A DNA stretch of 64,000 nt from Eremomyces bilateralis CBS 781.70 (GCA_010015585.1 ML975161.1), one strand, 5' to 3'. Shown: positions 5,815-54,836, counted from the stretch's first letter. Numbers and translations: made by a program. Notes: generated by a model from the sequence alone, not told the origin.

Positions 5815-5823
5815 CATAAATCA

Positions 5824-5912: not shown

Positions 5913-5930
5913 TTTCTTTTTTTCTTTTTT
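5913..5930 (+). terminator. RNA polymerase III oligo-T terminator of tRNA-Ile
   Basis: TTTCTTTTTTTCTTTTTT directly after the discriminator base. Confidence 0.85.
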
Positions 5931-6499
5931 TGATCTTTTATCAGAAACCTAAGCTATTTTTTTTGTCATCTTCTCTTGGTTAACTAGGTCCTCACGTGTT
6001 TTCTAACCGCCATTTTGCTTGTTCAAACCTGTCAGGGGCGGACGAAATTGATGGTTCTCAAGTCTTCATGGCTTCGAAACATCTCAATTAATACTTTGCT
6101 TTAACTACCTATCTATACCCCTAGTTGATGTCTCATCACTCATGCTCCTCTTGACTAAAGAGGTCAATACAATTCCCTATCACGTAGGCCGGAGGTGTAC
6201 GTCAAGGATGCACTGTGACCAGCTTCGTTTAGTGGAAGAATTGATGGCACTTCGCCGTTGCCGTTCCCCCAGCCGATGCAAAGCAAAACGATGAGCCATA
6301 CCAACTCTACTAACTTGAAGAAGTATGACTAGAGTAAACAGATGGGACTGTGCCCTTGATGCACTCTCCCGGCCTACGCCAACGGAGAGCCCATGACCGG
6401 ATGGAACTGATAGCACTGCGCCTTTGATACTCTCTTCCGGCCTATTCAAAACGAAGAACCACATCAACTTCGTCAACTTAAACTCGATCAATGTGCACA

Positions 6500-37496: not shown

Positions 37497-38828
37497 TCAG
37501 TTCCATTCTTCGGCGCTGGTTCCATCATCGCTGTCACTACTGAATTCGAAATTTGCAACCCATCCCATCATATCTGCAGATACTTCCGCATGAATATCCC
37601 AAGTTTGATGACTGAGCGTGTGAATTATGTCTTTTGCCACAAACACGACCGCAGGGTCCGCAATAAAGTTGACAAGATCCCAGAACACTGCAGTGCTCAT
37701 ACTCTGGTCATCAGTTAACTGAACGCCGGTTACAGCAAGCGAACTGAGCCTGAACGCCCAGTCTTCTGTTTCGTGTATGCTTCTCGTGATGAGCGTTAGG
37801 AGGATGTGCAAGTAGAGGAAACGTCTCGCAGGACGATTGTCGTTCTGGAATTTAAGTTCCTTTCCGTCAATATCAGCCCACCGGTATGTGCCAGAGCCAT
37901 ATGTACGCTCGTCGTTAGTGCCCTCCAGCTTTTTGGGGTCCAGAACGCAAGCTCTGAAGATTGTTGGCTGGCAACCCTGATACAGCGGTACGATTACCAA
38001 CTCTTTCCGATCAAATGCCTGTTCAACGTCCCTGTGTAGGAACAGCCCATTGGTGACGTCCATGAGACTCATTTTTGTGGCCTTGCCAAAGACCGCTTTG
38101 AAATTTTTTTCTCCAAACGAATAAGGAACAATATGTGCTGCCGTCACGCTCTTGCGTGGTAGCCAGTGCTGAGTTACTGGGCACCAATATTTATCTTCAT
38201 TGCGGCAAGCATAGAATTGTGAAACGTCTATGCTGAATGTTGCTTGTCCTGGTCTGGTTTTCCGTCCTGACTTCTTAGTCACCCCGTGATCCAGTGTGTT
38301 GCTCGCAGTCGGATATGAGTATGCTGTTAGGAGAGCATTACCCATTCGTCCTTCGGTCCTATTCTTATTCGCTAAGGCCCTTCGATGACAATGTAAACGC
38401 CACAAATTCCGGAGAATGCGATTCCGGCACTTAATAAATGTATGTCTGTCGAGAAGGCTGCGGCTATGTTGATCACGAAGCACACTTTGCGCAAGCAACC
38501 ATAGTTTTTGTTGGACTCTTATCCGTTCATCTTTCCAATCTTGGATTTCTTGTGGAGATCCGCTTGCGAACTTGTGGTCTTCTACCAGCGCATTCATCAG
38601 ATTCGCCCGAGACGGTCCGATACTATTGATGTCGTCACATAGAAATTTGCAAATTTTGAGCTCATCCTTCCAGGCAGCTGAATCAAATTGAATGAGTTCT
38701 AAAACGCCTACTGGGTCTTGGGGAAGAGCATTAAGGACGCCTTCGAGTATATCCGGTAATGTCGATTGGACCTAGCTTCGTCAGCTGTCTCAATTATTTA
38801 GCGGATATAGATGACTGATTCGTACCAT
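37497..38828 (-). CDS. HNH endonuclease (HNH_2-like), ~425 aa; probable ATG-only first exon, intron 38825-38772
   Basis: WCPVT..VTAAHIVPYS..NGLFLHRDVEQAFDR..VIVP..DIDGKELKFQNDNRPARRFLYLH. The frame is open 58 codons upstream of the listed ATG, up to a CTGAC..TAG acceptor. Confidence 0.85.
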
Positions 38829-40834
38829 TTTTGTTCATTGATGGATTCAGAAATACTTTTCGGTTTAATGAGATGGCAAAAGGCATTAGGCAATGAAGAA
38901 ATAGAATTAATATGCTCACATGTCGAGTTAATATGCGTCCGCTCTCAGCATTGGCAGCACGCCAATGGAGAATTCAGGCAGCAGAGACATGCATAATGTC
39001 AGTGTGGCCCACAAGGCTGTGAGGCATAATTATGTGCAAAATGAGGTTAGGGCTCTGGCCGTTCGCGCAGAGTGACGGTTGGGTTATTCCTTCTGTACTG
39101 GGTAGGTAATTATGTGGGTGAGAGATTTCCTACTCCCTCTGGCCAATCACTCCGCTCGCTGTAGCGCTGACAGTATCCATGGTGCATCCGTGCATGGGAG
39201 CGAAGACTGTTTTCGTACGTGCTCAAAGAACCTAGCGTGAGTGATTAAGAGGTGCTAAGCTCTAAGTGAAGAAGACTCTAAATGTAACGGATCAATTGAG
39301 GAAAAGGATTGATTCCTTAGAACTTTGTCGAATTGCTTGGAGAACGAGAAAAAGAGAAGAGAAGCTTCTTCCGAAGTCAGAATTATCTACATGCCGTGGG
39401 CGAACAGGATGGGAAGGCCCATGAGGCAGCAAGGCACCTTCCCAAGGCCACTAGGCCAACAACCATCAGTCTGGGCAACAAGCCCAAGACTGTTAAGTTA
39501 CAGAGAAATGGAAAAGATTAAAGTTCTTCCTTACCTCCCACAATTCATAAGGCTCTCCCAGCCTTGTGCTGTTGCATACGAGGATGCACCACTAGTACAA
39601 GATGTGGAAGAACTCCTCACTGTACAAGTATACGTAGTAGGTATATATGTACCCTGCTAGTGACCAGGGCGATGAATGAAACTTGAGGGGTTTGAACTCC
39701 AACGTCTTCTCTACTTTATCTCAGCCTTGTCCGCAATCGTGTTGACCTTGATCGACTTCCAGCTTCAGAGTTGCGTATGGGTATGTACCTAATCACTACC
39801 TATCGTCTCAGACAAAAAAGGCCGGGGTTTGGAGTTTAGACAAACCTCGCTTATCTAGGCTAGAGATTTCAATGAATATGGGCAGTGACAAACCTTTCGT
39901 CAATAAATTGATGGCCTTGCCTTATATTTAACTAGTAATCTTAGCAAACATGCCTTTTTAGGTATTATACCGAAATTGTTACACAAAAAAACACACCTGT
40001 TTTCGCAGGGTTCTAGTACCAGTCCATGTAACAGAAGAAAAGCGATCTAGAATTTGGACACGGAGAGAGGATTATATATAGAGATTTGGCGACCCACCCG
40101 TTAGATAACAGGGGTGGCCGAGTGGGAATCTGAACCACCTGAAATACTGGATTTTAGGAAAGCTCAATTAAGTTTTAACAGAACTTAAACCGATTACTTG
40201 GCAACCGGACGAAGTCTGCACTCATTCTATGCTCTCCGAAGCACTACTGTAGTCTGATTTCGATGAATGTTGAATCTGCCCCTCAAGTTTCCTTTCAGCC
40301 ATCATCATTTTCCTGTACCTGAATATTTGGTGCATATTCCGATCGATGCGGACATGGGATTCAAGGTCAGAAAGACTTCCTCGCTGCACCGGCGATCACT
40401 ATGATTGTTCACCCGCAGTCTAAATCAACCTATATTAGTCCGGCTTCCCCATAACCGCTCGAACCGATACACCCAAAACATGCACCAGAGCTGGTAGGAT
40501 TGTGGACATGTGTATCTCTAGACAGCCATAATTAATCACCACTCCAGGTAATGTTAAAGTGCGCCTGTGAGGATGGACCAAACGTGGTTGCTATTTCGTG
40601 CTCGTCTTGCGGGCATCTTAGATGTGGCAGTTGCCCTGTTACCTATGCCCCAAAATGACAGGAATCTGATGGGAGAGAACGTCATCGAGCGCTTGTGAAT
40701 CCGGTTGGAATCCGACGAGTTAAACAAAAGCTCCATGTCATCCTTAGATCCACTTTTTACTACTCGCAGCATATACGCATTTCCACCGACGATACGGGAG
40801 CGGTCTACATATTTCTAAAAGTATCAATTCGGGT

Positions 40835-40953
40835 ACATACGGCCACATCAACTTGAATATAGGGCATCCCGTCCGCTCTGCCGTACTCAAGCAGGTTAGA
40901 GATAGAATAGTACTACGGTGGGTGACCACGTGGGAACTCCTATTGCTGTATGT
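40835..40953 (+). rRNA. 5S rRNA gene, copy 1 (119 nt) followed by oligo-T terminator
   Basis: ACATACGGCCA...AGGGCATCCCGTCCGCTCTGCCGTACTCAAGC...TAGTACTACGGTGGGTGACCACGTGGGAACTCC...TGTATGT+TTTT. Terminal helix ACATAC/GTATGT. Confidence 0.93.
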
Positions 40954-41040
40954 TTTTTTTTAATGACCATTATGTCAAGTTTTTCAGTGGGCGGAATGGA
41001 TTTATGGTCGTTTATGATGCGAAAAGCTTCAACTTATAGT

Positions 41041-41159
41041 ACATACGGCCACATCAACCTGAATATAGGGCATCCCGTCCGCTCTGCCGTACTCAAGCAG
41101 GTTAGAGATGGAATAGTACTACGGTGGGTGACCACGTGGGAACTCCCATTGCTGTATGT
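41041..41159 (+). rRNA. 5S rRNA gene, copy 2 (119 nt) followed by oligo-T terminator
   Basis: Identical to copy 1 except at three positions. Same terminal helix and T tract. Confidence 0.93.
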
Positions 41160-41234
41160 TTTTGTTTTTGTTTTTGTTGACACGGTCTGGATGCGCAAGG
41201 TCTGCGATTACCAAGTTCCATTAATCTAAACTGA

Positions 41235-41253
41235 AGAGAGAGAGAGAGAGAGA
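41235..41253. repeat. (AG)n microsatellite
   Basis: agagagagagagagagaga seen directly. Confidence 0.9.
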
Positions 41254-41469
41254 AGAAATCTCCCGGCACCTTTGTGCGCGAGATAGCGACTCTCCTCTCC
41301 AATGCCCTAATGCTGTGTTACCATGTTTGTTTGCTTCTCTGATATAATCCACCAGCCACGTCTTCAGCCACAACCAAGGGAACAGGCCGCAGGCCTGGGA
41401 CCATAACAATTGTTTTGTTTATATTTGCAGATTGCTAGGCTTATGTAGTGAAAGGCTTCACTTCCTAAT

Positions 41470-41492
41470 ACATACGGCCATATCAACCTGAA
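41470..41492 (+). pseudogene. 5' fragment (nt 1-23) of a disrupted third 5S rRNA gene
   Basis: ACATACGGCCATATCAACCTGAA matches copy 2 at 22/23. It carries the same upstream motif as the intact copies. Similarity ends abruptly at 41492. Confidence 0.88.
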
Positions 41493-41675
41493 CAAAACGA
41501 GGACGACGGAGCAAATCCATCCATTTCGTGAGGGCAAGACCCTACGAAAACTGCTTTGCCCCTGCAAAATTAGCCGCTTCTACTCTCAAACGATAGGGAC
41601 GGGAAGGAGTGTGAATAGGGTGTAGGGGTGAGTAGATAGACGGGACCTGTATGGACATTAGGCTCCTAGCGTTTA

Positions 41676-42157
41676 TCTCAGTTGGGACTCAGACAGGATC
41701 TGCAAGATGCTTGTGGCGGTGCAGGCATCTTTCAGATGCCGTCTGAGGGCCTTTTGCAAGCATTTTGGTGGGCGCGTAGGTCAAAGAGCGAATTTGGCCC
41801 CTACAGTGCACTAAACCCCACCAAAATTCACGACCAGAGTCTCTCCAAAAGTTCAACTACGCGTGCCCTTCGAAACCGCCGATGCTAATCCTTTATTGTA
41901 GGCTTATTTCGATATATTTTTTAACATACTATAAAAGAGTGGGTTCTTTTACCCTTTACCTAGCCTCGCGTAAACTTTCGAGTACTGAAAGTTAAAATGG
42001 TTGACTGAAACGGCTGGGAACTCTGAAAACTTCAACTACGCGTCCACACAAATCTTACAAATGGACCTCAGACGGCATCTAAAGATGCCTTGCCTGCACC
42101 GCCACACTATAGTCACTTGCAGCGTCTGAAGATACCGTCTGAGCTTGCTTGCTGAGA
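41676..42157. mobile_element. MITE-like element (~480 bp) with ~110-bp imperfect inverted arms
   Basis: Left TGTGGCGGTGCAGGCATCTTTCAGATGCCGTCTGAGG (~41712-41748) versus right CCTCAGACGGCATCTAAAGATGCCTTGCCTGCACCGCCACA (~42066-42106). Similarity extends both ways to the termini TCTCAG/CTGAGA. No ORF. Confidence 0.75.
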
Positions 42158-42818
42158 AGTTGTGGTCGGGTCAATCTGGTCGTCGTCCCAAATAGGCCTC
42201 TGGCCTAAATGGGCTCCGCTCCCCATGCTGACCGAGCCCAATCCGGCTCCTTAACCCAACTAGCCTTCCATCCTAGTCTAGAACTAGCCTCACGAAATAG
42301 ACCCAGGCTCCCAGGCAATATGTAGCAAGGTGCCCCTGTTGATTTCAATGCCATGGAACAATCCTATGCCCATAACAATGGTGGACAAATCTCAAATGCT
42401 GATCCCCATGCTTAGAATATGCCTACTTTGCACTTACGAATTCTTTCCTACTATCTCCATCCTTGAATGATATCATCTATTGCCGACCTCTGGTTATCCT
42501 GGTCTATCGAATGGGAAAGACCGTCTTAGGTTGCCTAGTGCACTTGCCTAGTGCACTTGCCTAGCAGTATTAGGCTCCGCGGTCGTTCTCCCCAAACATT
42601 CCCACGCACCGCAGCAATAGAGCATTCCAGCAGCAACTCTCCAGTCCACGTTTCTCCAGCATTTAAATCGTGGAGTATGGCATTCCAGCGTCGAAGTCCC
42701 AACGTTAGCAACAACCCTCTGGCATATTCGACCTCTTGTGGCGTCATATCCCCGCCGAAAACCTAAGAGCATCCTATCGTCATTCAAGTTTCCGTCGAAA
42801 ACCGTCACAACCTCTCTT

Positions 42819-44094
42819 ATGCCCGCTATCAAAGCTCGCCTTACCCCACCGCTTGGTCACGGAGGCCGCGTTCCAAAGCTTATCGTGCGCCATCCTCACT
42901 ACCCGGACTGCAACACGCTTGTTAAGCTACCCGCCCTAGATGACGGCGACACAGTCGACTACGATGTAGCCCTCATTATCTGCGGCATCATCTCCGACAA
43001 TAGCTGGAGCACCGGCTGGTTCGCTCGCTCTGCCGATGGCAGCAAGGTGTGCAAGCCAGGTGTGCCGTTAGTTGCCTCCGATGGTGACGTCTTCTACTTT
43101 GTCAGCGATTGGAACTGTAAGTCACAGCGATGATTCATTTGCCATGGCCAGGCGCCTCTAACAATAGCTTTCTGCAGACAAATACCCCGTATATGTTTCG
43201 TGGGATCACTGGCGTCTCCCTGGTACCGACGCGGACCTCCCCTCCGCTTTCTCCACCCTCGCGATTGATCCCTCACCGCCCTCACTCCGCAACAGCGGCT
43301 ACGTGGAGGACCTCAAGGGCCGCGACCAGTCGTGCCGGGTGTCGGGCATCATTGACTTCTGTGAACAAGCGCACCTGGTTCCGGCGGGTGAGAGGGAGTG
43401 GTGGGACTCCAATATGGGCGAGAGCAGCGACCTGGAGATTCAATCGGCGCTGAACGGAATACTATTGCGAGCCGACCTCCACCGGTCGTTTGACGCCGGC
43501 ACATGGGTACCGATGGTAAGGGAGGGGGGCCGGCTAGTTGTATACGTGGTGCGAACAGTCGACGTGTCGAACCAGTTCGCCGCGCTGTGGCATAACATCG
43601 AGATGCAAAACCTGGTGGGTGTCGACCGGCGTTGCCTGTTCGCACGTGTCGCGTGGGCGGTACTGTCACTGCATCAAGAGTTTCTCGCCATCCGGCGACT
43701 AGCGAGCGACAACCTGTTGGTGCGGATGAAAGATGGGGAGCTGAAGGAGATGGCGCCTGAAGTGTTCAAGCAGTTTTCGCGCTCGTGATCGAAGAACCCG
43801 AGCCCAACGAAGCGGCCGCGATTGCAGGCGCTTGAAGAGGATGGCGGCGTTATCGTCGATGTGGAGCTGGGTTGGAGTTATGAGGCCGGTGACGAGGACG
43901 CTGACGAAACAAGAAACGACTTGAAGGAGGACAAAGAGCACCAACTCTACGACGCTGACGAATCGGTTCCGTACCACCGCGGCCGCAAACGCTTACGGAG
44001 CCCGGTGCCAGTTCCACCATGCGACCTCGACCTCGACCATCGCTGCATGCCGATAACCCCATCGAAATTGCAGAAGCCCACAGCTGTGCGATAG
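42819..44094 (+). pseudogene. Fungal HNH endonuclease gene (intron 43117-43177) with one in-frame TGA at 43786-43788; may still yield a truncated protein
   Basis: RHPHYP..LPALD..ALIICGIISDNSW; KYPVYVSWDHWRLP; RDQSCRVSG..EQAHLVP..EWWDSN..NGILLRADLHRSFD; LFARVAWAV. Then SRS*SKNPSPTKR continues in frame to 44094. Confidence 0.85.
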
Positions 44095-44204
44095 GGTATG
44101 CTCTCTCATCCGCTTGTCCTCTAGCAGAGCTCTTTTATCTGGTTTAACAAAAACGGTGCGCTTCCCATTCAGGACTGTCATATCGTGTTACGTGAGGCTG
44201 CGCT

Positions 44205-45045
44205 AGGGTCCCCTGCCTCTTGGAAGGTCATCTATTCCATCGTTGAGGGCTGCCCAACTAACTACTGGTGGAATCTTGACACCGCTAAGAGGTGCGTCCC
44301 GGGTTCCGGCGACATCAAGTGCGTCAACGCATTCAACTTTACGATTCCCCCAGGGGTCAAGAATGGCGATGCGATTTTCGCCTGGACCAAGTTCAAGAAC
44401 CTCGGTGAGCGCGAAATGTATATGAACTGTGCTGCCGTGACAATCACCGGTGGTCAAGACAAGCTCAATGAGCTTCCGCTTCTGTTCGTCGCGAACATCG
44501 GCGAGATTTCCGGATCTTGCGGGACCACTCAATCCGTGAACGTCGACTTCCCCAACCCAGGCAAGTACGTCACTACAAAGAAGCCCGCTGGTCCCGCTCA
44601 ATCCAGTTCCCAATCACGGTCCCATCGAACTGCGGCGCTGCTAAGGCTCCCGCTGGTAACAATCCCCCTGGTGGCGTCTTCGCTCCCGGTGCCTCTTCCG
44701 CCGCACCCTCGGCCTCTCCCTCTTAACGCTGCCCCCGAGCAGCAACCCGCAGTCCCCACTACTGCGCCGGTCTCTTCAAAACCTTCGCCCGCGGCAGCCC
44801 AACCGCCACTTGCTCCGGCCAAGCCTGTTCCTGCCGCCCCTGTCGCTAATCCGCAATGTTCGTGCGCAGCCGGCCAGGTCCCATGCTCGGAGACCGGATT
44901 TTACTGCATCGATGGTACGACCTTTGGGCAGTGTGCCTGGGGATTCGCGACGCCGATGACTATGGCGGAGGGTACGAAGTGTGAGGCGAATACTGTGACC
45001 TGGTCTATGCGACCATTAATGAGGAAACATACACTCCTCTTATAG
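44205..45045 (+). pseudogene. 5'-truncated AA11 lytic polysaccharide monooxygenase with C-terminal Cys-rich module
   Basis: WKVIYSIVEGCP, FTIPPGVKNGDAIFAWT..NLGEREMYMNCAAVTITGG, LFVANI, DFPNPG. Linker GGVFAPGA is in a shifted frame. C-terminal CSETGFYCIDGTTFGQC..MAEGTKC. No signal peptide or N-terminal His. Confidence 0.8.
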
Positions 45046-45141
45046 AGCTACCGTCTGTGTGCCCGACGGGCCATCACGGAAGACAACGTCTGAGCATATG
45101 TGTAGGCTACACCTAGCAGTGCTGGGGAATCAGCTTGAGCC

Positions 45142-46650
45142 TCACACTTCATCGTCATTGGGTCCATCCAGGTTAATCGGCCCCAGCGTAACGCTAGGGC
45201 TGTGAGTCGATGAAGCGACAAGAGTGAGCTTGTCTCGTTGATATCCTCGAGTGTCCCACGGAGGCGGCGAAGAGGAAACGGACGGATACAAGGCACCAGG
45301 ATGAGTCGGGATAGAGGTCGTGCGCTTGCCCTGGTTGTCGACCAAGGGAAAAGTTTGGGTGGGAGAATCTCGGCTCTCATAGTCCCGCTTGTAGCCCGTC
45401 GGCGATTCCCAATTCTCGTTGTTGAGGAGCAGCCTTGCAACGTCGAGCCGATTATCCATAGACAGGGCTAAGCGAGGCATGGCCAGCTGTTGAGACCAGG
45501 CGTCCCCAAGATAGTGAAGAATGCCGCCAATCTCACGGTCCCCAATTCCCTTGACCCACCAGAGGTCATCTATCGTCTTCATGAATATCAGGTAGTGGGC
45601 GAGGATGATGAGGGCGCGGGGCTGACGTTGGCGGCCAAGTTCGACAAAGGCCTCGGGGATGAAAGTGGACCAGGTGAGGATGCGGAGGGTCACGATGGGG
45701 CTAAGACCTTCTGAAAGCGCAGAATAGAGGGATCCGAGATACTTAAGAGTGGTGTAGTATGTGCCAATGTCGGAATACTCTGGATCGTCCATCTTAATGG
45801 AGGAAATGACGGAGAGCAAGTCGCTGGGGATATGGAAGGCGGCTTCATTCAGGTCGATGGAGGGTCTGAGGAACAGTTCGGCCATGCCCAACTCCCAGAG
45901 TCTCCGAGGACTCACCATGTCTATCATGAGACTGATACCTCTCCAGACGACCATCCAGTCCACGATGTGCAGTTCGCTGGTGCTCTCTTCGCGAAACATT
46001 TGGGATGACAGATTTGTGATAAGCAAGGAGCACGCTATGAGAGCCGGGAATGTCTCGGGCCTGGCCTTGTTGATGGCCATCCGGTAACCCTCGAGGGCAC
46101 GGACACGATAGCGGACAGCGCGGGAGGGCTGGATGTCCTGATTCAGTAACTGGAGTTGTAGTGCCGAGGTGGCCAGCAGGCAATCCATCAAGAAAGGAAA
46201 TTCAAAGGCATGGCGAGGTATCTTGACTTTCAAGATGTCGTCGATCCGCTTTGCCCTCCCATCTTGGATGGCAAAACAGTACCTATAGGTGGTAGTGGTG
46301 TAGAACCACAGCAGCTTCATGTCAACGGCATCCCTCTCAGACGAAGGCATGAAAAGTGGTTCGTAAGTTAGGGTGGTAAGAATTTCATGGTCGCTGATTC
46401 CTGGTGAGCTGGATGCGGCCGAAGAAGACCAAGACGTTGATTCTTGCTGAGATGGTGAGGAACCGTGGTAGACACAGGCAGTGTTGCGCAAGATGCATCT
46501 GCGACAAGTCGGACGAGACTCATCGCACTTGACCTTGCGGGATTTGCAGGCTTTGCATCCCGTCCGTGACTTTCTATGAGGCCTTTTGGGGTAGAAGGGC
46601 TTCTCATCGGGGAGTGTGGTCTGCTCGGTAGCTTCCACGAGAGTTATCAT
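45142..46650 (-). CDS. Zn2Cys6 transcription factor (Upc2-like), ~502 aa, intronless
   Basis: KRPHRKSRTGCKACKSRKVKCDESRPTCRRCILRNTACVY; DMKLLWFYTT; AFEFPFLMDCLLATSALQL; QPRALIILAHY. Uninterrupted ORF. Confidence 0.93.
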   Translation of the reverse strand: MITLVEATEQTTLPDEKPFYPKRPHRKSRTGCKACKSRKVKCDESRPTCRRCILRNTACVYHGSSPSQQESTSWSSSAASSSPGISDHEILTTLTYEPLFMPSSERDAVDMKLLWFYTTTTYRYCFAIQDGRAKRIDDILKVKIPRHAFEFPFLMDCLLATSALQLQLLNQDIQPSRAVRYRVRALEGYRMAINKARPETFPALIACSLLITNLSSQMFREESTSELHIVDWMVVWRGISLMIDMVSPRRLWELGMAELFLRPSIDLNEAAFHIPSDLLSVISSIKMDDPEYSDIGTYYTTLKYLGSLYSALSEGLSPIVTLRILTWSTFIPEAFVELGRQRQPRALIILAHYLIFMKTIDDLWWVKGIGDREIGGILHYLGDAWSQQLAMPRLALSMDNRLDVARLLLNNENWESPTGYKRDYESRDSPTQTFPLVDNQGKRTTSIPTHPGALYPSVSSSPPPWDTRGYQRDKLTLVASSTHSPSVTLGPINLDGPNDDEV

Positions 46651-47487
46651 CCTGTATCCGTATACGTCGTTGCGATCATCTGTTAACAATTTCGTTGGAC
46701 GGCATAATAAGACACATGTTTTGCTTTAGCATGCGGCCTGTAATTATCAAGTATCTGAAGTCTCCTGTCTCCCGCATTCGCAACGCCCGGTCCCTGTCCA
46801 GATCGCATACAGGGGCCCTTCGCACTCGCTTAACCGCAGATGCGAAGCTTGGGGCCAATCGGAACAAGTACCAGCGATGCCTGCGCAGTTCGGACGAGTA
46901 CCCTGAGGCCTGAACTAGGTAGTCTCCACTAATGACTATTTCAACTTCTATGCCCAACGATACTGCCACAATGCGCATCAAATGCGAGAGTTAATACGAG
47001 CGAGTTTCGCAACCCTACAGTCACCGGCTCTTTTGTGCGTGACACATACTAGGGTTGTCGTGTCGAATGTCGGAACACTCTTGTAAGTGGTAGGCGAGTG
47101 AGAAAGGGCTACAAGTTGCGCTCCAGTCAGAGATTGGAAAGTGAGTGCGAAGTCGTAGGCGAGGACCTTGGAGTCTGTGGTTGCTGTCTATCGACAACAT
47201 GGCGCTCAGATCATTGCTTGGTCTTGTTCCGATCTGACCATTGATATATAAGAGATACGGTATGCTTCGTTCCCATGATCTTGGTTATGCTTAATTACGA
47301 AGCGTATCTCCTCATCTTGGTGCCAACATCTCTGCGGCGTTGGCGTTTCTACCTTGTTGCTACATGTCCAAGGATTTGGTGTTGTCGAAGGGTATACAAT
47401 AGAGACGAGGAGATATACGAATCTCTTAACATCGACACTAGTTCACTACTCAGTTGATCCAACTCGACGAATTGGTTCCAGCTCACC

Positions 47488-48622
47488 ATGGACGCTGAAA
47501 CGGCAACATCATCTGGCATACCTCCGGAAAATCTTCACCAACTTCCCAACGGGACCTACGTTCACCGCGGCATGTTCAACTCCTTCGGTCCTGGCGCGAA
47601 CTGTACCCTTGATCTCTGCCCCATTGAATGGACCGTCTACCAGTATCGCCCGAACTTGCCCGTCAGCATTGTCTTCATGGCTCTCTATGCCATTGCCCTG
47701 ATCATCCATATCTACCTCGGCCTCCGCTGGCGCAGCTGGGGTTTCATGACCTTCATGGTCATTGGCTGCCTATACGCCATCATCGGCTATGGCGGTCGAG
47801 TCATTCTTTGGACAAACCCATGGTCGTTTGCCGGTTTCATGATCCAGATGGTCTGCATCACTGGGACACCGGTATTTTTTACGGCTACCATCTACGTGAC
47901 ACTATCCAGAGCGTACGCCTCGTTCTCTCTACTACTCTCTTCAGAGACACCATACTTCCACTTATGAGATTGAAACTAACAATACACCAGCATTCGCTTC
48001 TTTGCCCTCGAAATCTCCCGTCTCCCGCCGCGGCTCTTCTACTGGCTGTTCATCTCTGCCGATATATTGTGTCTGGCCCTTCAAGCCATCGGAGGCGCCC
48101 TCACATCGACCTCCAGCGGTTCCTCCCAAATAGGGGTCGACATCGCCATGGCCGGCCTCATCCTGCAGGTCATTATCCTGGTCATCTTCTGCGGCTTCTT
48201 CGTCGACTACATGATTCGCTACGTCAAATTGCAGAGGTCCCGCATGAGAAGTAAGAAGAACACCATCGCCACGCGCCAGCGCCTTTTCTTTGGAGGGCTT
48301 GCGTCGGCCATTATCCTGATTCTAGCGAGGTGCGCCTATCGTGTTGATGAGCTCAGTCAGGGGTACAGCGACTCTACCAAAATCACGGATGAGCAATTGT
48401 TTATCGGATTGGAGGGGGTGTAAGTTCCATCTCAGTTTTATTGAACTGCATGAAAAGACGCGCTGATTGTGATATAGCTTAATTTATGTTTCCGTCATTT
48501 CTCTCTTCATCGGACACCCTGGATTTGGGTTCGAAGGAACTGGCCCTGAGCATGACTGCCCAAGCGTCGAGAGCGGCGAGGAAATGATGAGACCTAAGGA
48601 ACATGATGGAAGTGACGCATAA
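47488..48622 (+). CDS. RTA1/RSB1-family lipid-translocating exporter; introns 47913-47990 and 48420-48477
   Basis: CTLDLCPIEWTVYQYRPNL, IGYGGRV, FMIQMVCITGTPVFFTATIYVTL, DILCLALQAIGGAL, IAMAGLILQV, RCAYRVDELSQGY, LEGV..HPG. Intact after splicing. Confidence 0.93.
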
Positions 48623-49189
48623 AGACACTCGAGGGGTCTGCTAATTGCCGCGTCTTGGTGACGAGAGAGAAAACTGAAAGGTCCCTCTGTTAGAATTGAC
48701 AATTGCAGGTCGTCTGGTTTCCCTTGCCTCACTACCACGCACTTCTCCATCGGCCTCTCGTACCCACCGTGATCGAGCCAGGATTCCACCCTCTGCAGGA
48801 TATCGAATGCTTAGACTCTTCGCCTATGCGTTAGCCGAAAACGAAATGGCGCTCTAGCGAACGCAACCCGTCACATGCAATTCGGGTTCGGACGTTTCTT
48901 AGGGCACGTGCTTAGCAACCATACGCATTGCTTCGCAGCCAAAGATGGCCGGCACAGCTTTCTCCACACTCTTCTTTGCGTGTTTTTCTTACCACACGGT
49001 ATTTGATGGCAGGCACTTAGCCACACGCATACTCTCGCACGCTTCCAGCCCCACATCCCCTTACTCCGCACGACCGTAAGCTGCGTCAACTTAAGGGGGT
49101 CACGAGATCATCGGTCGCATGACTAACAAGGAAGCACGCCTGGATTTATTGATCTTCCCCGCTAGAATCAACGTTAACCCCTTCGGCTT

Positions 49190-50160
49190 AGATATAGATA
49201 GCATTGATAGATATTTCGGTGTCAACTGGGTAAAAGATGATATATCCGACCGCTTAATGTATGTCTGACCTCTATTAGCTAGGCCACTCCTACGCCATGA
49301 ACCTCCTTTATCCGCTTCTCCGTAAAACCTCGCAGTTCCCTGATATACCTCCGCCGCCCATTGTCTTCGAAGCGTCCGAAATGCACCGTATGGCACCGTC
49401 CAACGTGCATTTCGCTTCATTTGAAGAGACCAATAATAAGTCATGGATGGGACCCATCTCTATGGCCGATCCAAGCTGGCATTGATCCTTGGTGCCAAAG
49501 GTATAGTTCCTAAAGTTATTGAACCGATTGGAGACAAAGACCTCACATTGTCTGTGTATCCAGGAACTGTAAGTATGGTTTATCATTTGCAAAACCATTA
49601 TTGACATGTCTTAGGTCAACACATAAGTAACGGATACCGTGTTCAAGATGCTACTACTGACATCCTTCATGCGATATGCAAAAACCATGGCAGAATGAGT
49701 CGTCTTTACATGAAACGTTCTCCGGTAGAGTTGCTAACACACCTTAGATATATATACTGGTCTCACTGGGAAGCTTGTCATAGCTGCCATGCAATTCTTA
49801 GGGCGCGATCCAAAGTAGGGCGCATATAGTGCATAATAAGTCAAGTATACCTGTACTTCTACCAGTCGCAACTGGTAATTAATACATAGTCATAGATATA
49901 TAGCTACCAGCCCTGAAATCGAGGAGAAGAACATGAACGGATTCTACTTTAATGACCCGGTAAGTCTGAGATCAACGGAATCGCGTGCGGAAGATTGTCA
50001 TTAGACCGTAGCTAATATATCGAACAGGGTAAACCCAGGAAGGAGACCTCCCAGCCATCAGACTCGAATTTGGAGGCTTCGCTGTGGACTTGAGCACCCG
50101 GATAATTGAGGACAAGCTAGGCAAGGGAACATGTTCTGAAGCCATGGAACAAGGCATAAG
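49190..50160 (+). pseudogene. 5'-truncated short-chain dehydrogenase (retinol-dehydrogenase-like) pseudogene
   Basis: IDRYFGVNW^LGHSYAMNLLYPLLRKTS..IVFEASEMHRMAP, frameshift, LYGRSKLALIL (YxxxK), SVYPGT^VNT, ATSPEIEEKNMNGFYFNDP. Rossmann N-terminus absent; stops and frameshifts present. Confidence 0.8.
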
Positions 50161-50248
50161 AGGTCGAGATGATATAAAAGGAATTTGTTCGTGAGGGAAG
50201 GCTGAAGGGCTTCTAAGCCTCTTGCTGCAGACGCACGAAACAGTCCTC

Positions 50249-50589
50249 CTAATCCACTTTTTCAAGTGTTCCAGGGTTGTGTGCGACCAACTTCCCCTTC
50301 TGATCTGTAAACAACACCTAGAAGCAAGTAAAATCAGCATCGATGTTGGATAGACCAAATTTGGCCCTGGGCTCTCGCCTACCTTGGGCGGATTCTTCAC
50401 GCCCTCTTTCTTTGCCTCTTCCTCGGTGGTCACGACTTTCTCAACCTGGGCAACAACATTAGACCTAGTGGATTGTTAAAGTGAACTTAATTGACTTACA
50501 TCGCCCTCATGTCGACCGCCTCTGATCTTTGTGTAAACATGATCACCTTTATGGATCGGCTCGCCCTGCTTGGATTTGATTTCAGGCAT
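50249..50589 (-). CDS. 73-aa HVA1-Tudor (hypervirulence-associated / DUF2945-like) protein; exons 50589-50500, 50445-50383, 50317-50249
   Basis: Spliced translation MPEIKSKQGEPIHKGDHVYTKIRGGRHEGDVEKVVTTEEEAKKEGVKNPPKVLFTDQKGKLVAHNPGTLEKVD*. Two clean phase-0 GT-AG introns. Confidence 0.8.
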
Positions 50590-50749
50590 GTTGAAGTGAG
50601 GTGTCGACGAACTTGGTTTCTTTGGGACAGTATTTCAGCGTACTTTGTTTTTACGCAATCGGTGCTAGGTAGGGAACAATACAGAATTGGTATCTTAAAA
50701 TGTAGTCGCAACTACTAAGTACTGATTGTGAAGGCAACCTTTGTTGAGT

Positions 50750-51435
50750 ACTGTGTGTATGACGTCATGGTAATCCAACATATGCTTTTGCGTCATACCC
50801 GTACGGAAATACTTCACGTCAACAATCTAAGAATGAGTTAACTTTTAAAACAACTTGGGCAAAACTAAGGAATACCAGAGGAACTAAGTAATCGCAGGAA
50901 TGATCTGTCACTGGAGCTCTGAATTACGATGCTCAAAGGTCTGCTATCACTCTCCCGCCAGGTGCACGGCATAGAAAGTGTTGGATCGAAACGTGTCTTA
51001 TTAAGAAACTTAACAAATGAGAGTATTATATACAGAGTATCAATCACGTGCCTCATAACCTCCGATGTTCTCCCGGCTTTGGTCTAACAAAAGGGCTGAA
51101 AGATCAGCACGTGACAGCGAGGCGTTATGTCCTGGTGCTGCAGAGCAAACCAAACGGGCCACAAGGCCACAAGGCATCCAGGTCTACGAGACACATGCAT
51201 CAAGGTCTACGAGACATCGCGAACTTATCTAGTGGATGTGAGTGTAGGTCATAGGCATGATAAGTCCAGGTGTTTCGTACTCCTTGAAGAGCCACATGGC
51301 GTAGCCGCGCTTGTAGGTAGTTCTGTCCGACACTGGGACCGTATCGTCGACTGGCTTGCTCTGGAAGCCAGCTAGAAGCTCCTTTGCCTCATGTTCTCCG
51401 GCTTCGCCCTTTCGAATAGTGCGTCGTGGCGCCAT
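50750..51435 (-). pseudogene. Truncated N-terminal remnant of a putative captain-like (DUF3435) tyrosine recombinase
   Basis: MAPRRTIRKG...VSDRTTYKRGYAMWLFKE followed by a phase-2 intron, comparable in position and phase to ..QWHQ^ of the 24-kb DUF3435. Later exon KYFRTGMTQKHMLDYHDV aligns with EKPCMYVEDL. Catalytic half absent. Confidence 0.5.
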
Positions 51436-51548
51436 AGTCAAAGACATATCTTGGAATAGACGCCGAGAATTTTGGCTGCGTGGAGCGTTGATAGCGTCGA
51501 CTACCTCCGAACCCGATGGAACTGGAACTGAAGAAGAGTACTGTAGAG

Positions 51549-51629
51549 CTGCGAACGGAGCTCCGGACTGAGGGCGAGACTGTAAAAACTGCGAACAGGA
51601 CACCTGACTGAGAGCGAGACTGGAAAACT
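51549..51629. repeat. Degenerate 40-bp tandem duplication upstream of the captain-like remnant
   Basis: ctgcgaacggagctccggactgagggcgagactgtaaaaa / ctgcgaacaggacacctgactgagagcgagactggaaaa. Confidence 0.75.
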
Positions 51630-51731
51630 AGGGAGAAAGGGCATCTTTACTATCCTTACCAGAGTGTATTTTCGACGGGCCCTCGTCTTTCGGCGGTATT
51701 TACCCTCTGTTTTCGACCTCGTTTATACCGC

Positions 51732-51766
51732 TGGGAGACCATAGGGGAACTCCCATTGCTGTATGT
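51732..51766 (+). pseudogene. 3' fragment (nt 85-119) of a disrupted 5S rRNA gene, with oligo-T terminator
   Basis: TGGGAGACCATAGGGGAACTCCCATTGCTGTATGT+TTTTTT. The last 22 nt are identical to copy 2, and the TGG-GNRA-CCA hairpin is retained. Confidence 0.88.
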
Positions 51767-53217
51767 TTTTTTGTTTTTGGTGCTCTTGGCCATATCTTTT
51801 TGCACAAGGCACATACCGCGACTGTGGGCCAGAACCTTACTGCCGGAACGCTATCATGGGGAGGACTCAGAGGACATTTCATTAGGCATGATGAGGAAGG
51901 GGACCAGGCATGGCTCATACCCTACATATATCAAGTCGGCCGGCATATGCAAGGCTGGTCCTTTGATACAATAACCGGAGACTGAAACCTCCCCCAAATC
52001 ACGAGTCTCTTAATTCCCATCGGCTCGCCTGGCCTCGGGATGGGCCTTATGTAACATAGAATTCAATATTCCTCTTGAAGTGGAGGACTAGTCTCAATTA
52101 GTTCAAGGCTCGGACAGAACTGGAATAGAAAATATACCGCAGCAGCTGACGTTTGGCAGTCACGAAATGGCGGACGAGTGCGCCACCAGCACCAGCATCC
52201 TATATATGACGGTCGTATTTGCCGTCCTTATCATGTTGACCTAGCTGGCCACCGCGTGACGGGCGGAGGAGAGAGCGGAGAGAGAGGAGTGGATGAGGGG
52301 GAGGAAGCGGGAACGGGAGGAGAAGCAGCAGCAAAAGCACTAAATGCGTAATTATCTCTTCCAATTATACCACAATAACCACATCCCCATCTGGCCTCCA
52401 GTTCACTAGACAATCCCGCATTCGTTTACCTAGCGACAAATGAAACACACCTATCACCATTCGCAAAACCTGCCCATCCACGCGTCAGGAGACGACTACC
52501 AGCGCGGACAGTAGACGTGACTAGGTATTGACGTACACTATTTAGCGAATAGGGAGACAAGAAGGGAGAGAGGGGGTTGCGCAACAGGTGAGGCAGTGCA
52601 TTGATGATGTCCTGGTTCATCTTGCAAGAGGCTCTTCATTCTTGGCTGTGGGATAAGCGAAATGCGTTGACGCGGCGAGCCAGATATTCAGAGAGTGGAG
52701 AGTGTAAAGTGCTAAGGAGGAAGGGTTTCTGTCTTCTGAATATCGCAATCTCCGCTTCACTTTCCACCATTGATAATTTGATATATTCCCCCACCCCGCA
52801 TATCACTTGGATTGTGGATTCAGCATACCGGTAACTTAATCCGTGCGCCTACAACTGTACAGCATCGTCGCTCATATTTACGCTTTGCTCCTCGTGCACA
52901 AATACACATCCCATCTCTGAACCGTGGACTCTGCTACACAGGCAAGTTTCAACCATCCCCAACCATAGCATTGGACCCCTGCGAGCTGGATTCGAGCCTA
53001 GAAGAGGGGAGGTTCCCTGAGATTAATTTCCCCGGGACGGGGGTACACATCTAGGCTCCACAGACAACAGGGCTTCCGGTCAAGCGTCTCATCACCACTC
53101 CCTTATACCTACGACCATGAAACGAACATACTGTACTGACTACTGACCTTTTCAGCATCCTGCCTCGGAAGCGCCTTGCGAGTCTTTCACTTCGAATATA
53201 CCCAAAAATCCGTCAAA

Positions 53218-54836
53218 ATGGTTCTGAAACGGTTTACGAGTATAATACAGAGGAAGACCCAATCCAGTACGATTCCCTCGCGCTTGACCAACTATCTGTT
53301 CTGACGATGCGCTTTAATAGATCACGACGATGAGCCTCTACCGGAAGGCGACACGCCAGAGGCGAACGCCGCGCGGGGAGTGGTATGAATTATCCTTTGG
53401 TCGGTTAATACGCATACTGAACGTGTCTATAGAAGCTCTTCTGTGAGTCCGGCGGACCAAACACGGCGGTAAGTAAAGTTCACCACCACCACCAAAGCAG
53501 ATAATTTAACAGTCCATACCAGGGCGAAGAAGTCCTCCACCTTCCCACTATCGTCGAAGCCGCCGAATCCAGCCCTGCAGCAGCCGGTGTCGCCGCAGCC
53601 CAGATCCGCAAGTTTCTCAGCAAAGACTACTCCTCACGACCACATGTCCAATACAACGCCATCATGCTCATCCGGATCCTCGTCGACAACCCTGGTCCGA
53701 CCTTCACAAAGTATCTGGACAGCAAGTTTACGGGCGCGGTGAAAGACCTGCTACGAAACGGGAAGGATCCCAGCGTCCGCCAAATCCTCCACGAGACTCT
53801 CAACGCCTTCTACTACGAGAAAGCATACGACACCAACCTCTCCCTCCTCAACTCCATGTGGACCAAAGAACTCGGCCCCTACGTCCCCCCACCGAACGGC
53901 GCTACATCCGTCAGCCCGTTCGGTGCCCCCCAAATGACCGCCTGGCCACAACAAGAGGCTTACTCCCGTGGTTCCCCCCGTTACCACCACTCTTCCCGCG
54001 CCCTCCCCCCACCCCCCGAGCTTGCCGCGCGCATCGAAGAAGCTCGCACGTCTGCGAAGCTTCTTCTGCAGCTCTGCCAGTCCTCCACGCCAGACGAGAT
54101 GCAAGCCAACGACCTGATCAAGGAGTTCGCCGATCGCTGCCAGACTGCCCAACGCAGCCTGCAGGGCTACATGAACTGCGACGACCCAGTTCCGGACGAC
54201 GCCACCATGCAGACGATGATCGAGACGAGCGAGCAGCTGAGCTTGGCTGCGAGCAAACATCACCGCGCACTGCTGGCTGCCCGGCGCGCGGCAGCACCGA
54301 CAGCCTCGCCTCCGCCGAGTCTGCCGCCACGAGACAACGCCCCTCCAGCGCCGTCATCCACAACGACGCCGTCGCCCCTCTCACCACTCGAGAGCCCTCT
54401 TCCCCCGATCCCAACGACCCTGCAGGCAGGCATCCCGCGACGGAACCCCCAAACCACCTCACCGACCGCACCCCCGAACCCCTACGACCCGACCACCAGC
54501 CCATACGCACCACCTGGCGCACCCGCCGCGCACGGCAACCTCGACCTCTCGCCGCAGCCGACCGACAACCCGTTCAGCGACGAGCACGCGGCGGAGCATC
54601 AGCCGCCGACGCGACCGGGGTTCGCGGCGACACCGTCGAGCTATACTCGGCGGCAAGAGAACGCGATGGGCGGTGAGCAGATGCGGGGGGCGGTGCCGTC
54701 GGTGCCGGAGGAGGATGAGGGGGAGGAGGAGCGGCGCACGGAGAAAGAGAGGGGGACGAATGGGGGGGGTGGTGCGGTCAGGGAGAGTCGGGAGAAGGTG
54801 AGCCCTGTGGAGGAGCGGGTGACGTATCGGTATTAG
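53218..54836 (+). CDS. VHS/GAT-domain membrane-trafficking adaptor (TOM1/Lsb5-like), 4 exons
   Basis: Three short introns join MVLKRFT..., LFCESGG, EEVLHLPTIVEAAESSP..IRKFL..HVQYNAIMLIRILVDNPG (VHS) to ELAARIEEARTSAKLLLQ..NDLIKEFADRCQ..MIETSEQL (GAT). Pro-rich tail with NPF. Confidence 0.85.

What the first reader, a model, noticed from the sequence alone, without database searches (positions are those of the whole stretch)
41470..51766. A 5S rRNA gene split by a ~10-kb gene-carrying insertion: candidate miniature 5S-targeting Starship
Seen: 5S nt 1-23 (41470-41492) and nt 85-119 plus terminator (51732-51766) lie in the same orientation 10.2 kb apart. Only accessory genes and pseudogenes sit between them, and housekeeping genes resume after 53 kb. 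Established: some Starship giant transposons, mobilised by DUF3435 tyrosine recombinases, integrate into 5S rDNA and carry the recombinase as the first gene. Inference: this is an unusually small, captain-truncated element oriented on the minus strand, possibly mobilisable in trans.
Basis: partly seen in the sequence, partly recalled or inferred. Interest (0 to 1): 0.88.

Follow-up and report, generated by a model that had tools for sequence, protein, structure and literature searches.

The report
Dead Starship relic splitting 5S gene
A fungal 5S ribosomal RNA gene is broken in two by about 10 kb of accessory DNA that ends in the 53-codon stump of a Starship transposon recombinase gene, so it is a decayed example of a known kind of giant fungal transposon rather than a working miniature one.

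Summary
Beside two intact tandem 5S genes lies a third copy. Its nt 1-23 sit at 41470-41492. Its nt 98-120 (exact) plus terminator sit at 51745-51774, with weaker 5S likeness back to 51729.

The right end of the insert is Starship-derived. Codons 1-53 of a DUF3435 "captain" lie on the minus strand about 300 bp inside the 5S piece. They are 92% identical to a full-length Eremomyces bilateralis protein that a published table places in family 9, Arwing. The DUF3435 domain itself is gone.

Contigs of public DNA runs show that both ends of the insert are repeated. Each end also recurs beside 5S pieces with different outer flanks.

It is not a clean single insertion. 5S nt 24 to 81-97 are missing, no direct repeat is seen, and the two junctions fall at two different 5S positions. 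No empty site could be tested.

The interior is single-copy accessory DNA: an HNH gene with an in-frame stop, a truncated AA11 fragment, a Zn2Cys6 factor, RTA1 and an expressed Hva1 gene.

Verdict: a decayed, probably composite Starship relic, and a new member of a known kind. This scan has already noted similar relics on other pieces of the same genome. Mobilisation in trans is unsupported.

The parts
40835..40954 (+). intact 5S rRNA gene, copy 1 of the local cluster
   Evidence: RF00001, 83.4 bits, full model 1-120
41041..41160 (+). intact 5S rRNA gene, copy 2
   Evidence: RF00001, 85.1 bits
41441..41469 (+). upstream flank of 5S copy 3, similar to the upstream flank of copy 2
   Evidence: Repeat family D3: the 52-nt unit, of which the last 23 nt are the 5S piece, is 81% identical to 41012-41063
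41470..41492 (+). 5S copy 3, nt 1-23 (left junction after nt 23)
   Evidence: 22/23 to copy 2, E 2e-5. Four contigs of run X1 begin to fit exactly at 41470 and have unlike upstream sequence (table 7)
41493..42600 (.). left-end repeated DNA, no recognisable coding capacity
   Evidence: Summed word depth is 4 to about 50 times the single-copy level in X1/X2 (table 2). No Pfam hit for 29 ORF pieces of 35 aa or more at E<=1 beyond noise. Homology to the HNH unit of L001 begins at 42600
41712..42106 (.). nested MITE-like element with about 70-nt inverted ends
   Evidence: Inverted repeats I2 and I20; self-blast arms 41712-41779 and 42036-42106, 82%. Depth 2500-7800 in X1 against 220-260 for single-copy DNA (tables 3-4)
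42819..44121 (+). HNH_2 domain gene: one GT..AG intron of about 63 nt near 43115-43177, and an in-frame TGA at 43786-43788 where relatives read on
   Evidence: PF13391, E 6.5e-10. tblastn of P0015, P0011, P0013 and P0025. Sequence read
44211..45042 (+). 5'-truncated fragment of an AA11 lytic polysaccharide monooxygenase gene
   Evidence: PDB 9exj_A and 4mah_A, E 5.6e-19 and 2.9e-18, covering only chain residues 77/78 to 200/203. The listed paralogous DNA pieces and RNA pieces of X1-X3 start to fit at 44211; the X4 piece starts at 44221 (tables 7-8)
45145..46650 (-). Zn2Cys6 transcription factor gene, open frame of 502 aa, covered by an RNA-like contig
   Evidence: PF00172, E 3e-9. Own protein P0066, 100%, 502 aa. 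X3 contig covers 44886-46694 without differences (table 8)
47458..48420 (+). RTA1-like membrane protein gene with one intron (start not fixed)
   Evidence: PF04479: profile positions 1-55 and 54-187 on two same-frame ORFs. GTACGC...ACTAAC...CAG intron read
50249..50589 (-). small Hva1_TUDOR gene (73 codons, two introns in the coding part, one in the leader), expressed
   Evidence: Spliced joints CT..AC in X3 at 50315/50381, 50443/50498 and 50826/50876 (table 5). Spliced frame computed. Partial PF11160 hit, E 8e-4, below the family cut-off
50990..51268 (.). repeated, non-captain DNA that replaces the body of the captain gene
   Evidence: Single-copy contigs of X1/X2 end at 50990-51007. Depth is about 15-22 times single-copy. 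Several different homology break points at 51089-51213 (tables 2, 4, 7, 8)
51277..51435 (-). captain (Starship tyrosine recombinase) stub, codons 1-53 only
   Evidence: tblastn with P0006, aa 1-53, 92.5%, E 3e-26. BLASTP 49/53. P0006 and P0005 carry PF11917
51549..51627 (.). 40-bp subterminal tandem repeat, 2 copies, between the captain start and the element end
   Evidence: TRF score 114. Paralogous contigs skip 57-196 nt here, which suggests a variable copy number (table 5)
51729..51744 (+). 16 nt resembling 5S nt 82-97 (11/16): either the element's target-like end or decayed 5S
   Evidence: 5 mismatches in 16 nt against 0 in the next 23 nt, Fisher p=0.0076. TGGGAG (51732-51737) and CTCCCA (51750-51755) are inverted arms around 12 nt (read)
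51745..51774 (+). 5S copy 3, nt 98-120 (exact) and T-run terminator
   Evidence: 23/23, E 9e-8. Three X1 contigs fit up to 51779 and then run on unlike (table 7)

Best explanation
This is the wreck of Starship-type mobile DNA lodged in the third gene of a small 5S rDNA cluster. It is not an intact miniature element.

Shown:
- The right end (51268-51744) is the captain-proximal end of an Arwing-type (family 9-like) Starship. It reads leftwards and abuts 5S nt 98-120.
- Only codons 1-53 of the recombinase remain.
- Both ends of the 10.2-kb insert are repeated in the genome.
- Each end recurs next to 5S pieces that have different outer flanks.

Inferred:
- A DUF3435 tyrosine recombinase integrated the element site-specifically near the CCACGTGG palindrome of the 5S gene (nt 92-99).
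- The left junction, after nt 23, is a second site-specific junction at the position used by Voyager-type elements.
- A later deletion or recombination between neighbouring or nested elements removed 5S nt 24 to about 97 and the captain body.

What remains is a single-copy patchwork of accessory genes, some broken and some expressed, between two non-matching ends. Without a recombinase gene and without a matched pair of junctions it is most likely immobile.
For: - The 5S pieces are real and correctly ordered.
- Captain stub: 49/53 identical to P0006, E 1e-32; tblastn places it at 51435-51277 on the minus strand. P0006 and P0005 carry PF11917. P0006 is gene erebil1_347678, listed as fam09 in Table S4 of PMC11162782.
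- No other part of a captain is in the window. None of 34 ORFs of 70 aa or more and none of 87 ORF pieces of 35 aa or more at the two ends hits PF11917. tblastn finds nothing further.
- Ends are repeated: summed word depth in X1 is about 5000 at 50708-51641 and 940-12000 at 41368-42768, against 220-260 in the interior and flanks (table 2).
- Ends recur at other 5S genes. Four X1 contigs start to fit at 41470 with unlike upstream sequence that still carries the 5S upstream motif. Three stop fitting at 51779. One 352-nt contig joins a diverged right end plus 5S 3' piece to a spacer and the next 5S gene (tables 5, 7, 8).
- Published habit: 23% of curated Starship insertion sites lie in 5S rDNA, mostly Enterprise, Arwing and Voyager families (PMC11162782 passages). 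Voyager inserts 20 bp from the 5S start (PMC9156397 passage). 5S clusters act as multi-insertion hotspots in A. fumigatus (PMC12153272 passage).
- The interior looks accessory: in-frame stop in the HNH gene, a 5'-truncated AA11 fragment, and a Zn2Cys6 factor whose named relatives among the 120 listed hits are Sordariomycetes at 41-62% identity.
Against: - No empty site was seen. The only other organism with the same species label (run X4) is too diverged and does not cover the flanks.
- No direct repeat longer than a possible GAAC is present. The terminal inverted match is only 11/12, equalled by 12 of 500 shuffles.
- The left-end repeat has no feature that ties it to Starships other than its 5S junction. 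It shares no 9-mer with the right end.
- None of the usual Starship accessory families (DUF3723, ferric reductase, patatin, NLR) was found in the insert.
- RTA1 and Hva1 have roughly 80-83% nucleotide relatives in organism B, so they may be resident genes (table 8).
- Word depth of contigs is not a copy number; the tool says so itself.
- The order of events (two insertions plus one deletion) is inference only.
Confidence: 0.65

Rival explanations
1. This is a true two-ended, non-autonomous mini-Starship. The left-end and right-end repeats are the two ends of one element family that keeps only a captain stub, carries varying cargo, and is moved by full-length family-9 captains encoded elsewhere. 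The fixed pair of junctions (5S nt 23 and about nt 98) would then be a property of the family's integration.
For: - Both junctions recur at other 5S genes (table 7).
- A full-length 92%-identical relative of the stub exists.
- Earlier unchecked notes of this scan describe other small captain-stub elements between 5S pieces in the same genome, one of them 'not clean'.
Against: - Conservative tyrosine-recombinase integration at one site does not delete 58-74 nt of target.
- Summed word depth differs between the two ends (left about 1000-2500 at 41554-41637, right about 5000-5800; single-copy 220-260, tables 3-4).
- The ends share no 9-mer, and the inverted match is weak (12 of 500 shuffles).
- The DNA that replaces the captain body is itself a mosaic of repeats with several break points (table 7). 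That looks like decay, not a conserved design.
- Pairing of the two ends at other loci was not seen.
Confidence: 0.13
2. These are two unrelated relics in two different 5S genes of the cluster, with resident chromosomal DNA between them. The 5' piece belongs to one 5S gene hit at nt 23. The 3' piece belongs to a neighbouring 5S gene hit near nt 98. Most of both elements has been lost, and the 8 kb between them never travelled on a Starship.
For: - The locus is a 5S cluster with spacings of 206 and 429 bp.
- Such clusters collect several insertions (PMC12153272 passage).
- The interior is single-copy (table 2).
- RTA1 and Hva1 have relatives in organism B, and Hva1 keeps about 1 kb of collinearity there (table 8).
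- No Starship accessory gene families lie inside.
Against: - It needs two separate deletions that each spare exactly the outward-facing 5S piece.
- In organism B the matches to the AA11 fragment, to RTA1 and to the Hva1 region lie on three different contigs, far from contig ends. The window's gene order is therefore not conserved there (table 8).
- The interior holds a truncated gene fragment, a gene with an in-frame stop and a factor with only Sordariomycete-like named relatives. This fits imported or shuffled DNA better.
Confidence: 0.18
3. The two short 5S matches are chance matches or ordinary truncated 5S pseudogenes with no link to a mobile element.
For: Truncated 5S pseudogenes are known in filamentous fungi. 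This is recalled knowledge and rests on no call.
Against: - E-values are 2e-5 and 9e-8 in this window.
- Both pieces keep the gene's own upstream or terminator flank.
- A captain stub lies about 300 bp inside one of them.
- Both junction sequences recur at other 5S genes.
Confidence: 0.02

Closest known systems
Arwing-family (family 9, clade 3) Starships and other 5S rDNA-targeting Starships (Gluck-Thaler and Vogan 2024, PMC11162782; passages and supplementary Tables S1, S2, S3, S4, S8 seen)
   Same: The captain start is 92% identical to a protein that Table S4 lists as fam09. The captain is the first gene at one end, reads inward, and abuts a broken 5S gene. The family is one of three reported to sit mostly in 5S rDNA.
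   Different: Only 53 codons of the captain remain. The insert is 10.2 kb, against 15,020 bp for the smallest element of that paper. No direct repeat is seen. The reported Arwing core motif CCCG/GGGC lies at 5S nt 28-37, inside the missing part, not at either junction. That paper found 15 recombinase genes but 0 elements in the one E. bilateralis genome (Table S8).
Starship Voyager of Macrophomina phaseolina (family 10; Gluck-Thaler et al. 2022, PMC9156397; passages seen)
   Same: Voyager always inserts 20 bp from the 5S start. The left junction here is after nt 23, within the stretch that matches Voyager's direct repeat (nt 20-31 by my alignment of the repeat in Table S1 to this 5S gene). The captain is antisense to the 5S gene and lies on the side of the 5S 3' part.
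   Different: The captain relatives here are family 9, not 10. The captain-side junction is near nt 82-98, not nt 20-31. The 11-12 bp direct repeat is absent.
Degraded or 'Derelict' Starships; truncated and fragmented Starship-like elements (PMC9156397 passages; bioRxiv 10.1101/2025.01.08.631984, figure legend passage)
   Same: The captain is lost or broken while cargo persists and stays partly expressed. Nesting and fragmentation are described.
   Different: The 2022 working definition asks for at least three hits to DUF3723, FRE, PLP or NLR genes. None is present here.
5S-rich Starship hotspot on chromosome 3 of Aspergillus fumigatus (Osiris, Enterprise family; PMC12153272, passages seen)
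   Same: A local cluster of 5S genes in which individual copies are fragmented by Starship insertions, alongside a degraded element.
   Different: Different family and host. Those elements are 38-138 kb with identifiable direct repeats and segregating empty sites.

Membership tests
Starship superfamily | DUF3435 tyrosine recombinase (captain) as first gene at the 5' end, reading inward | tested here: not met
   Position and direction fit, but only codons 1-53 remain. The DUF3435 domain, at aa 195-492 of relative P0006, is absent. No PF11917 hit in 34 + 87 ORF pieces.
Starship superfamily | defined ends with a direct repeat that matches the target site, often with short terminal inverted repeats | tested here: inconclusive
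   No repeat beyond a possible GAAC at both junctions (read). An 11/12 inverted match lies near the termini, and 12 of 500 shuffles reach it. 5S nt 24 to 81/97 are missing.
Starship superfamily | presence/absence polymorphism: an empty site in another genome | not testable with these tools
   No genome is held for the window. Of the 5 runs listed, X1 and X2 (one sample) and X3 hold the locus. X4 (same species label) shows no depth over the flanks except a trace in the bin that holds the 5S 3' piece, at 80% likeness.
Starship superfamily | other copies of the element ends at other sites of the same kind | tested here: met
   Both ends have many similar contigs in X1/X2. Four contigs begin at 5S nt 1 (41470) with unlike upstream sequence. 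Three end after the 5S terminator (51779) with unlike downstream sequence. One joins a diverged right end to another 5S unit. Pairing of the two ends was not seen.
Starship superfamily | cargo genes not needed for transposition between the ends | tested here: met
   HNH_2, AA11 fragment, Zn2Cys6 factor, RTA1 and Hva1_TUDOR. Whether they arrived on the element is not shown.
Arwing family (fam09) | captain falls in the family-9 clade of the recombinase tree | tested here: inconclusive
   By proxy only. The nearest full-length relative P0006 is erebil1_347678, listed as fam09. The stub has 53 codons, and no tree was built.
Arwing family (fam09) | insertion in 5S rDNA at a core motif CCCG/GGGC, in either direction | tested here: not met
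   It is in 5S rDNA. However, GGGC and CCCG lie at nt 28-31 and 34-37 of this 5S gene (read), inside the missing stretch. The junctions are after nt 23 and near nt 82-98. Table S13, which holds the curated repeats, was not in the stored text.
Voyager family (fam10) | insertion 20 bp from the 5S start with an 11-12 bp direct repeat | tested here: inconclusive
   The left junction after nt 23 is within 3 nt of that site. No direct repeat is present, and the captain-side junction lies elsewhere.
Voyager family (fam10) | captain of family 10 | tested here: not met
   The relative of the stub is listed as fam09.
Degraded Starship ('Derelict' sense, PMC9156397) | at least three hits to DUF3723, FRE, PLP or NLR genes without a DUF3435 gene | tested here: not met
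   None of these families appears among the Pfam hits of the insert.

The most novel reading that the evidence does not exclude
The left-end and right-end repeats may be the two ends of one family of captain-stub mini-Starships. Every copy would then sit between 5S nt 1-23 and nt 98-120. Integration would replace the 74-nt interior of the 5S gene by using two different sites in the target, like a natural recombinase-mediated cassette exchange. Alternatively, the recombinase would delete between a pseudo-site at nt 23 and the junction. Full-length family-9 captains would act in trans.
Probability: 0.1. Interest if true: 0.75.

Novelty: new member of a known kind. Interest (0 to 1): 0.33.

Why it matters
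Starships that target 5S rDNA, and their decay into cargo-bearing wrecks, are already described, so the main result is ordinary. Three things give it some value.

1. The published survey found recombinase genes but no element boundaries in the one genome of the likely host species. Here one boundary is fixed to the base, at a 5S gene.

2. The reads show two recurrent junction positions in 5S genes of one genome (after nt 23 and near nt 98). With the full assembly this would show whether two families share the 5S niche or one family uses two sites.

3. The locus shows how imported or shuffled genes stay behind and stay expressed after the element dies. Examples are a transcription factor whose named relatives are all Sordariomycetes, and a spliced, well-covered Hva1 gene.

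Tried and rejected
- Whole genome of the window: none is held. Laying public contigs was the substitute.
- Earlier notes by sequence or place around the finding returned nothing.
- Empty site: run X4 (same species label, other organism code) holds next to none of the words. At 80% likeness it covers only 5S genes and a few coding pieces, so no verdict is possible.
- RNA: no listed holder is on record as RNA. X3 is only guessed to be RNA. I treat it as RNA-like because its contigs lack GT..AG introns.
- Rfam at E<=10 does not report the 5S fragments.
- Search for a hidden captain at the left end: no PF11917 hit. A tblastn hit of P0006 aa 267-331 at 41491-41712 has E 7.9 and was dismissed.
- Idea that the HNH_2 gene is the conserved far-end gene of the element: rejected. 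In 6 of 6 metagenome loci no 5S was found. In the three loci searched for neighbours (L001, L003, L004) the neighbours are unrelated, and L001's homology to the window begins only at 42600.
- Idea that the RNA contig ending at 44211 marks a splice to an upstream AA11 exon: rejected. The bases before 44211 are not AG, and its 30-letter continuation is not in the window.
- Shared words between the two ends: none of 9 nt or more.
- The second HNH_2 gene at 37500-38771 is only distantly related to the one in the insert: 13/44 identical in the best segment.
- Papers on non-autonomous or trans-mobilised Starships: searches. The passages read gave nothing on this point. PMC12506042 holds the term 'non-autonomous' twice but was not read.
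- Eremomyces bilateralis together with Starship: 0 papers in main text.

Full report
**Observation.** An Rfam scan of the window finds two intact 5S rRNA genes on the + strand, at 40835-40954 and 41041-41160, and a tRNA gene far away. A permissive Rfam scan of 39-54 kb adds no 5S fragment.

A short-word BLAST with 5S copy 2 finds exactly two further significant matches in the 64 kb:
- nt 1-23 at 41470-41492 (22/23, E 2e-5);
- nt 98-120 at 51745-51767 (23/23, E 9e-8).

Both are on the + strand and in gene order. All other hits are 9-13 nt with E of 0.3 or more.

Ungapped extension takes the 3' piece back to 51729, which is nt 82. The first 16 nt carry 5 mismatches and the last 23 carry none (Fisher p=0.0076). 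The 29 nt before the 5' piece resemble the upstream flank of copy 2, and a T-run terminator follows the 3' piece (families D2 and D3).

A third 5S gene of a local cluster is split by 10,239-10,252 bp. In addition, nt 24 to 81/97 of that gene are nowhere in the window.

**The right end is the front of a Starship.** The open frame at 51232-51627 (minus strand) was searched against longer proteins. It hit two proteins, both named by their source as Eremomyces bilateralis CBS 781.70 hypothetical proteins and both carrying PF11917 (DUF3435): P0005 at 87% identity and P0006 at 92%.
- BLASTP aligns 49 of 53 residues to residues 1-53 of the 793-aa P0006.
- tblastn puts this at 51435-51277 on the minus strand and finds no other part of either protein in the window.
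- In P0006 the DUF3435 domain lies at residues 195-492, so the stub has no catalytic part.
- No PF11917 hit came from 34 ORFs of 70 aa or more across the insert. None came from 87 ORF pieces of 35 aa or more covering 48.3-51.7 kb and 41.5-43.4 kb at E up to 1.
- The supplementary tables of Gluck-Thaler and Vogan 2024 (PMC11162782) list erebil1_347678, the gene behind P0006, as a predicted tyrosine recombinase of fam09, the Arwing family (Table 1 passage).

The captain start lies about 300 bp inside the 5S 3' piece, antisense to the 5S gene. Between them lies a 40-bp tandem repeat.

**Both ends are repeated and recur at other 5S genes.** No genome is held for the window. I therefore laid contigs of four public runs on 39500-53500 at 80% likeness. 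X1 and X2 are DNA runs from one sample and hold 96% and 94% of the sampled words, so they may be the source genome.

Summed word depth in X1 (table 2):

| Region | Depth |
|---|---|
| Flanks and 42.8-50.7 kb (single-copy level) | 220-260 |
| 41368-42768 | falls from about 12,000 to 940 |
| 50708-51641 | about 5,000 |

The tool warns that this figure is not a copy number. I read it only as "many similar contigs".

Contig-level evidence:
- Four X1 contigs begin to fit exactly at 41470 (5S nt 1). Their upstream parts are unlike the window, yet their consensus still holds the AAAGCTTCAA-type motif seen upstream of the window's own 5S genes.
- Three X1 contigs fit up to 51779 and then diverge.
- One 352-nt single-depth contig joins a diverged copy of 51587-51771 to a spacer and the start of another 5S gene.
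- Another contig skips 51662-51744 and resumes at 51745.

The end sequences do recur next to other 5S fragments. The contigs did not show whether the two ends occur as a pair elsewhere.

**Why it is not a clean, single, movable element.** Conservative integration by a tyrosine recombinase leaves the target whole, with a short direct repeat.
- Here 58-74 nt of the 5S gene are gone.
- The only shared word at the two junctions is GAAC.
- The ends share no 9-mer.
- They share only an 11/12 inverted match near the termini, which 12 of 500 shuffles equal.
[quoted passage not shown] By my alignment, its direct repeat in Table S1 maps to nt 20-31 of this 5S gene.
- The right junction lies at the CCACGTGG palindrome (nt 92-99). 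There the 16 target-like bases form, together with the 5S DNA, 6-nt inverted arms around 12 nt (read). An earlier unchecked note of this scan reports a similar layout for another element of this genome.
- The reported Arwing core motif CCCG/GGGC would lie at nt 28-37, inside the missing stretch.
- The captain body is replaced at 50990-51268 by other repeated DNA with several different homology break points (table 7).
- The left-end repeat holds a nested 395-bp MITE-like element.

The simplest account is two site-specific events in one 5S gene, or in neighbouring genes of the cluster. A later deletion or recombination then removed the 5S interior and the captain body. Nesting, fragmentation and multiple insertions at 5S clusters are all described. 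The order of events is inference.

**The interior**:
1. An HNH_2 gene at 42819-44121. It has one intron and an in-frame TGA where relatives read on.
2. A fragment of an AA11 lytic polysaccharide monooxygenase at 44211-45042. It lacks the first roughly 77 residues of the catalytic domain.
3. An open Zn2Cys6 factor gene of 502 aa, covered without differences by an RNA-like contig. Its named relatives among the 120 listed hits are all Sordariomycetes at 41-62% identity. None is a Dothideomycete, the class to which source names assign the captain and HNH paralogues.
4. An RTA1-like gene with one intron.
5. A 73-codon Hva1_TUDOR gene on the minus strand with three GT..AG introns that are removed in X3 contigs.

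None of the usual Starship accessory families appears.

The left flank is itself not plainly core. It holds a second, distant HNH_2 gene, and 39.5-40.75 kb has a diverged second copy in the reads (tables 3 and 5).

In organism B (run X4) the matches to 44.2 kb, 47.5-48.6 kb and 49.4-50.6 kb lie on three different contigs. Each match is far from its contig's ends, so the window's gene order is not kept there. These matches may, however, be paralogues (table 8).

**Comparison and novelty.** Starships in 5S rDNA are well documented:
- 23% of curated insertion sites lie there, with at least five separate target positions.
- Voyager is one such element.
- Osiris sits in a 5S-rich hotspot.
- Decayed and truncated elements are also documented.

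The survey that included the one E. bilateralis genome lists 15 recombinase genes and 0 elements for it, and no main text pairs that species with Starships. This is therefore a new member of a known kind. At 10.2 kb it is below the smallest published element of that survey (15,020 bp), but it is a wreck, not an autonomous element.

This scan has already noted several similar captain-stub and captain-less small elements on other pieces of the same genome. Those notes are unchecked leads. They pointed me to PMC11162782, to the break after 23 bases and to the inverted-arm layout.

**Limits.**
- Contigs, not reads, were laid, and many rows were not shown.
- Tables S11-S15 and Figure 5C of PMC11162782 were not available.
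- No tree of captains was built.
- The family assignment rests on 53 residues and a published table.

Noticed in passing
window 42600-44121; loci L001-L006: The HNH_2 gene unit is unusually conserved. It is 82-93% identical at protein level to many metagenome and fungal proteins from several orders. It is 87.7% identical at DNA level to L001 over 42600-44021. Its neighbours differ in each of the three loci examined: RdRP and a DDE_3 transposase, N-myristoyltransferase, and DUF7924/ankyrin/CorA. It behaves like a wandering gene of its own.
   Followed up: partly
window 45145-46650 (-): The named relatives of the Zn2Cys6 factor among the 120 listed hits are all Sordariomycetes (Colletotrichum, Dactylonectria, Fusarium, Xylariales, Sporothrix) at 41-62% identity. 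None is from the class suggested by the other genes. It is a candidate for old horizontal transfer. No tree was built.
   Followed up: no
window 41712-42106: A 395-bp element with about 70-nt inverted ends (82% alike) is nested in the left-end repeat. Many similar contigs occur in the DNA runs, at depth 2500-7800 against 220-260. It is probably a MITE. No target duplication was recognised.
   Followed up: partly
window 39500-41145: The left flank has a diverged second copy in the DNA and RNA-like runs. In that copy the stretch 40752-41021, which includes 5S copy 1, is replaced by 71 other letters (tables 3, 5, 8). The 5S cluster therefore lies in duplicated DNA.
   Followed up: no
window 44211-44656: An AA11 paralogue elsewhere in the genome is very highly covered in the RNA-like run X3 (contig depth 5828). 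An X3 contig identical to 44211-44820 runs on unlike the window to the left of 44211, which suggests a near-identical full gene elsewhere (tables 7, 8).
   Followed up: partly
window 51549-51627: The 40-bp subterminal tandem repeat between the captain start and the element end seems to vary in copy number among paralogous ends, with skips of 57-196 nt in other contigs. It could hold recombinase arm-binding sites. This was not tested.
   Followed up: no
window 37500-38771 (-): A second, only distantly related HNH_2 domain ORF (424 aa) lies in the left flank, outside the insert.
   Followed up: partly
window 5824-5912 (+): A tRNA gene whose anticodon loop is followed by 18 extra bases not in the model, presumably an intron.
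   Followed up: no
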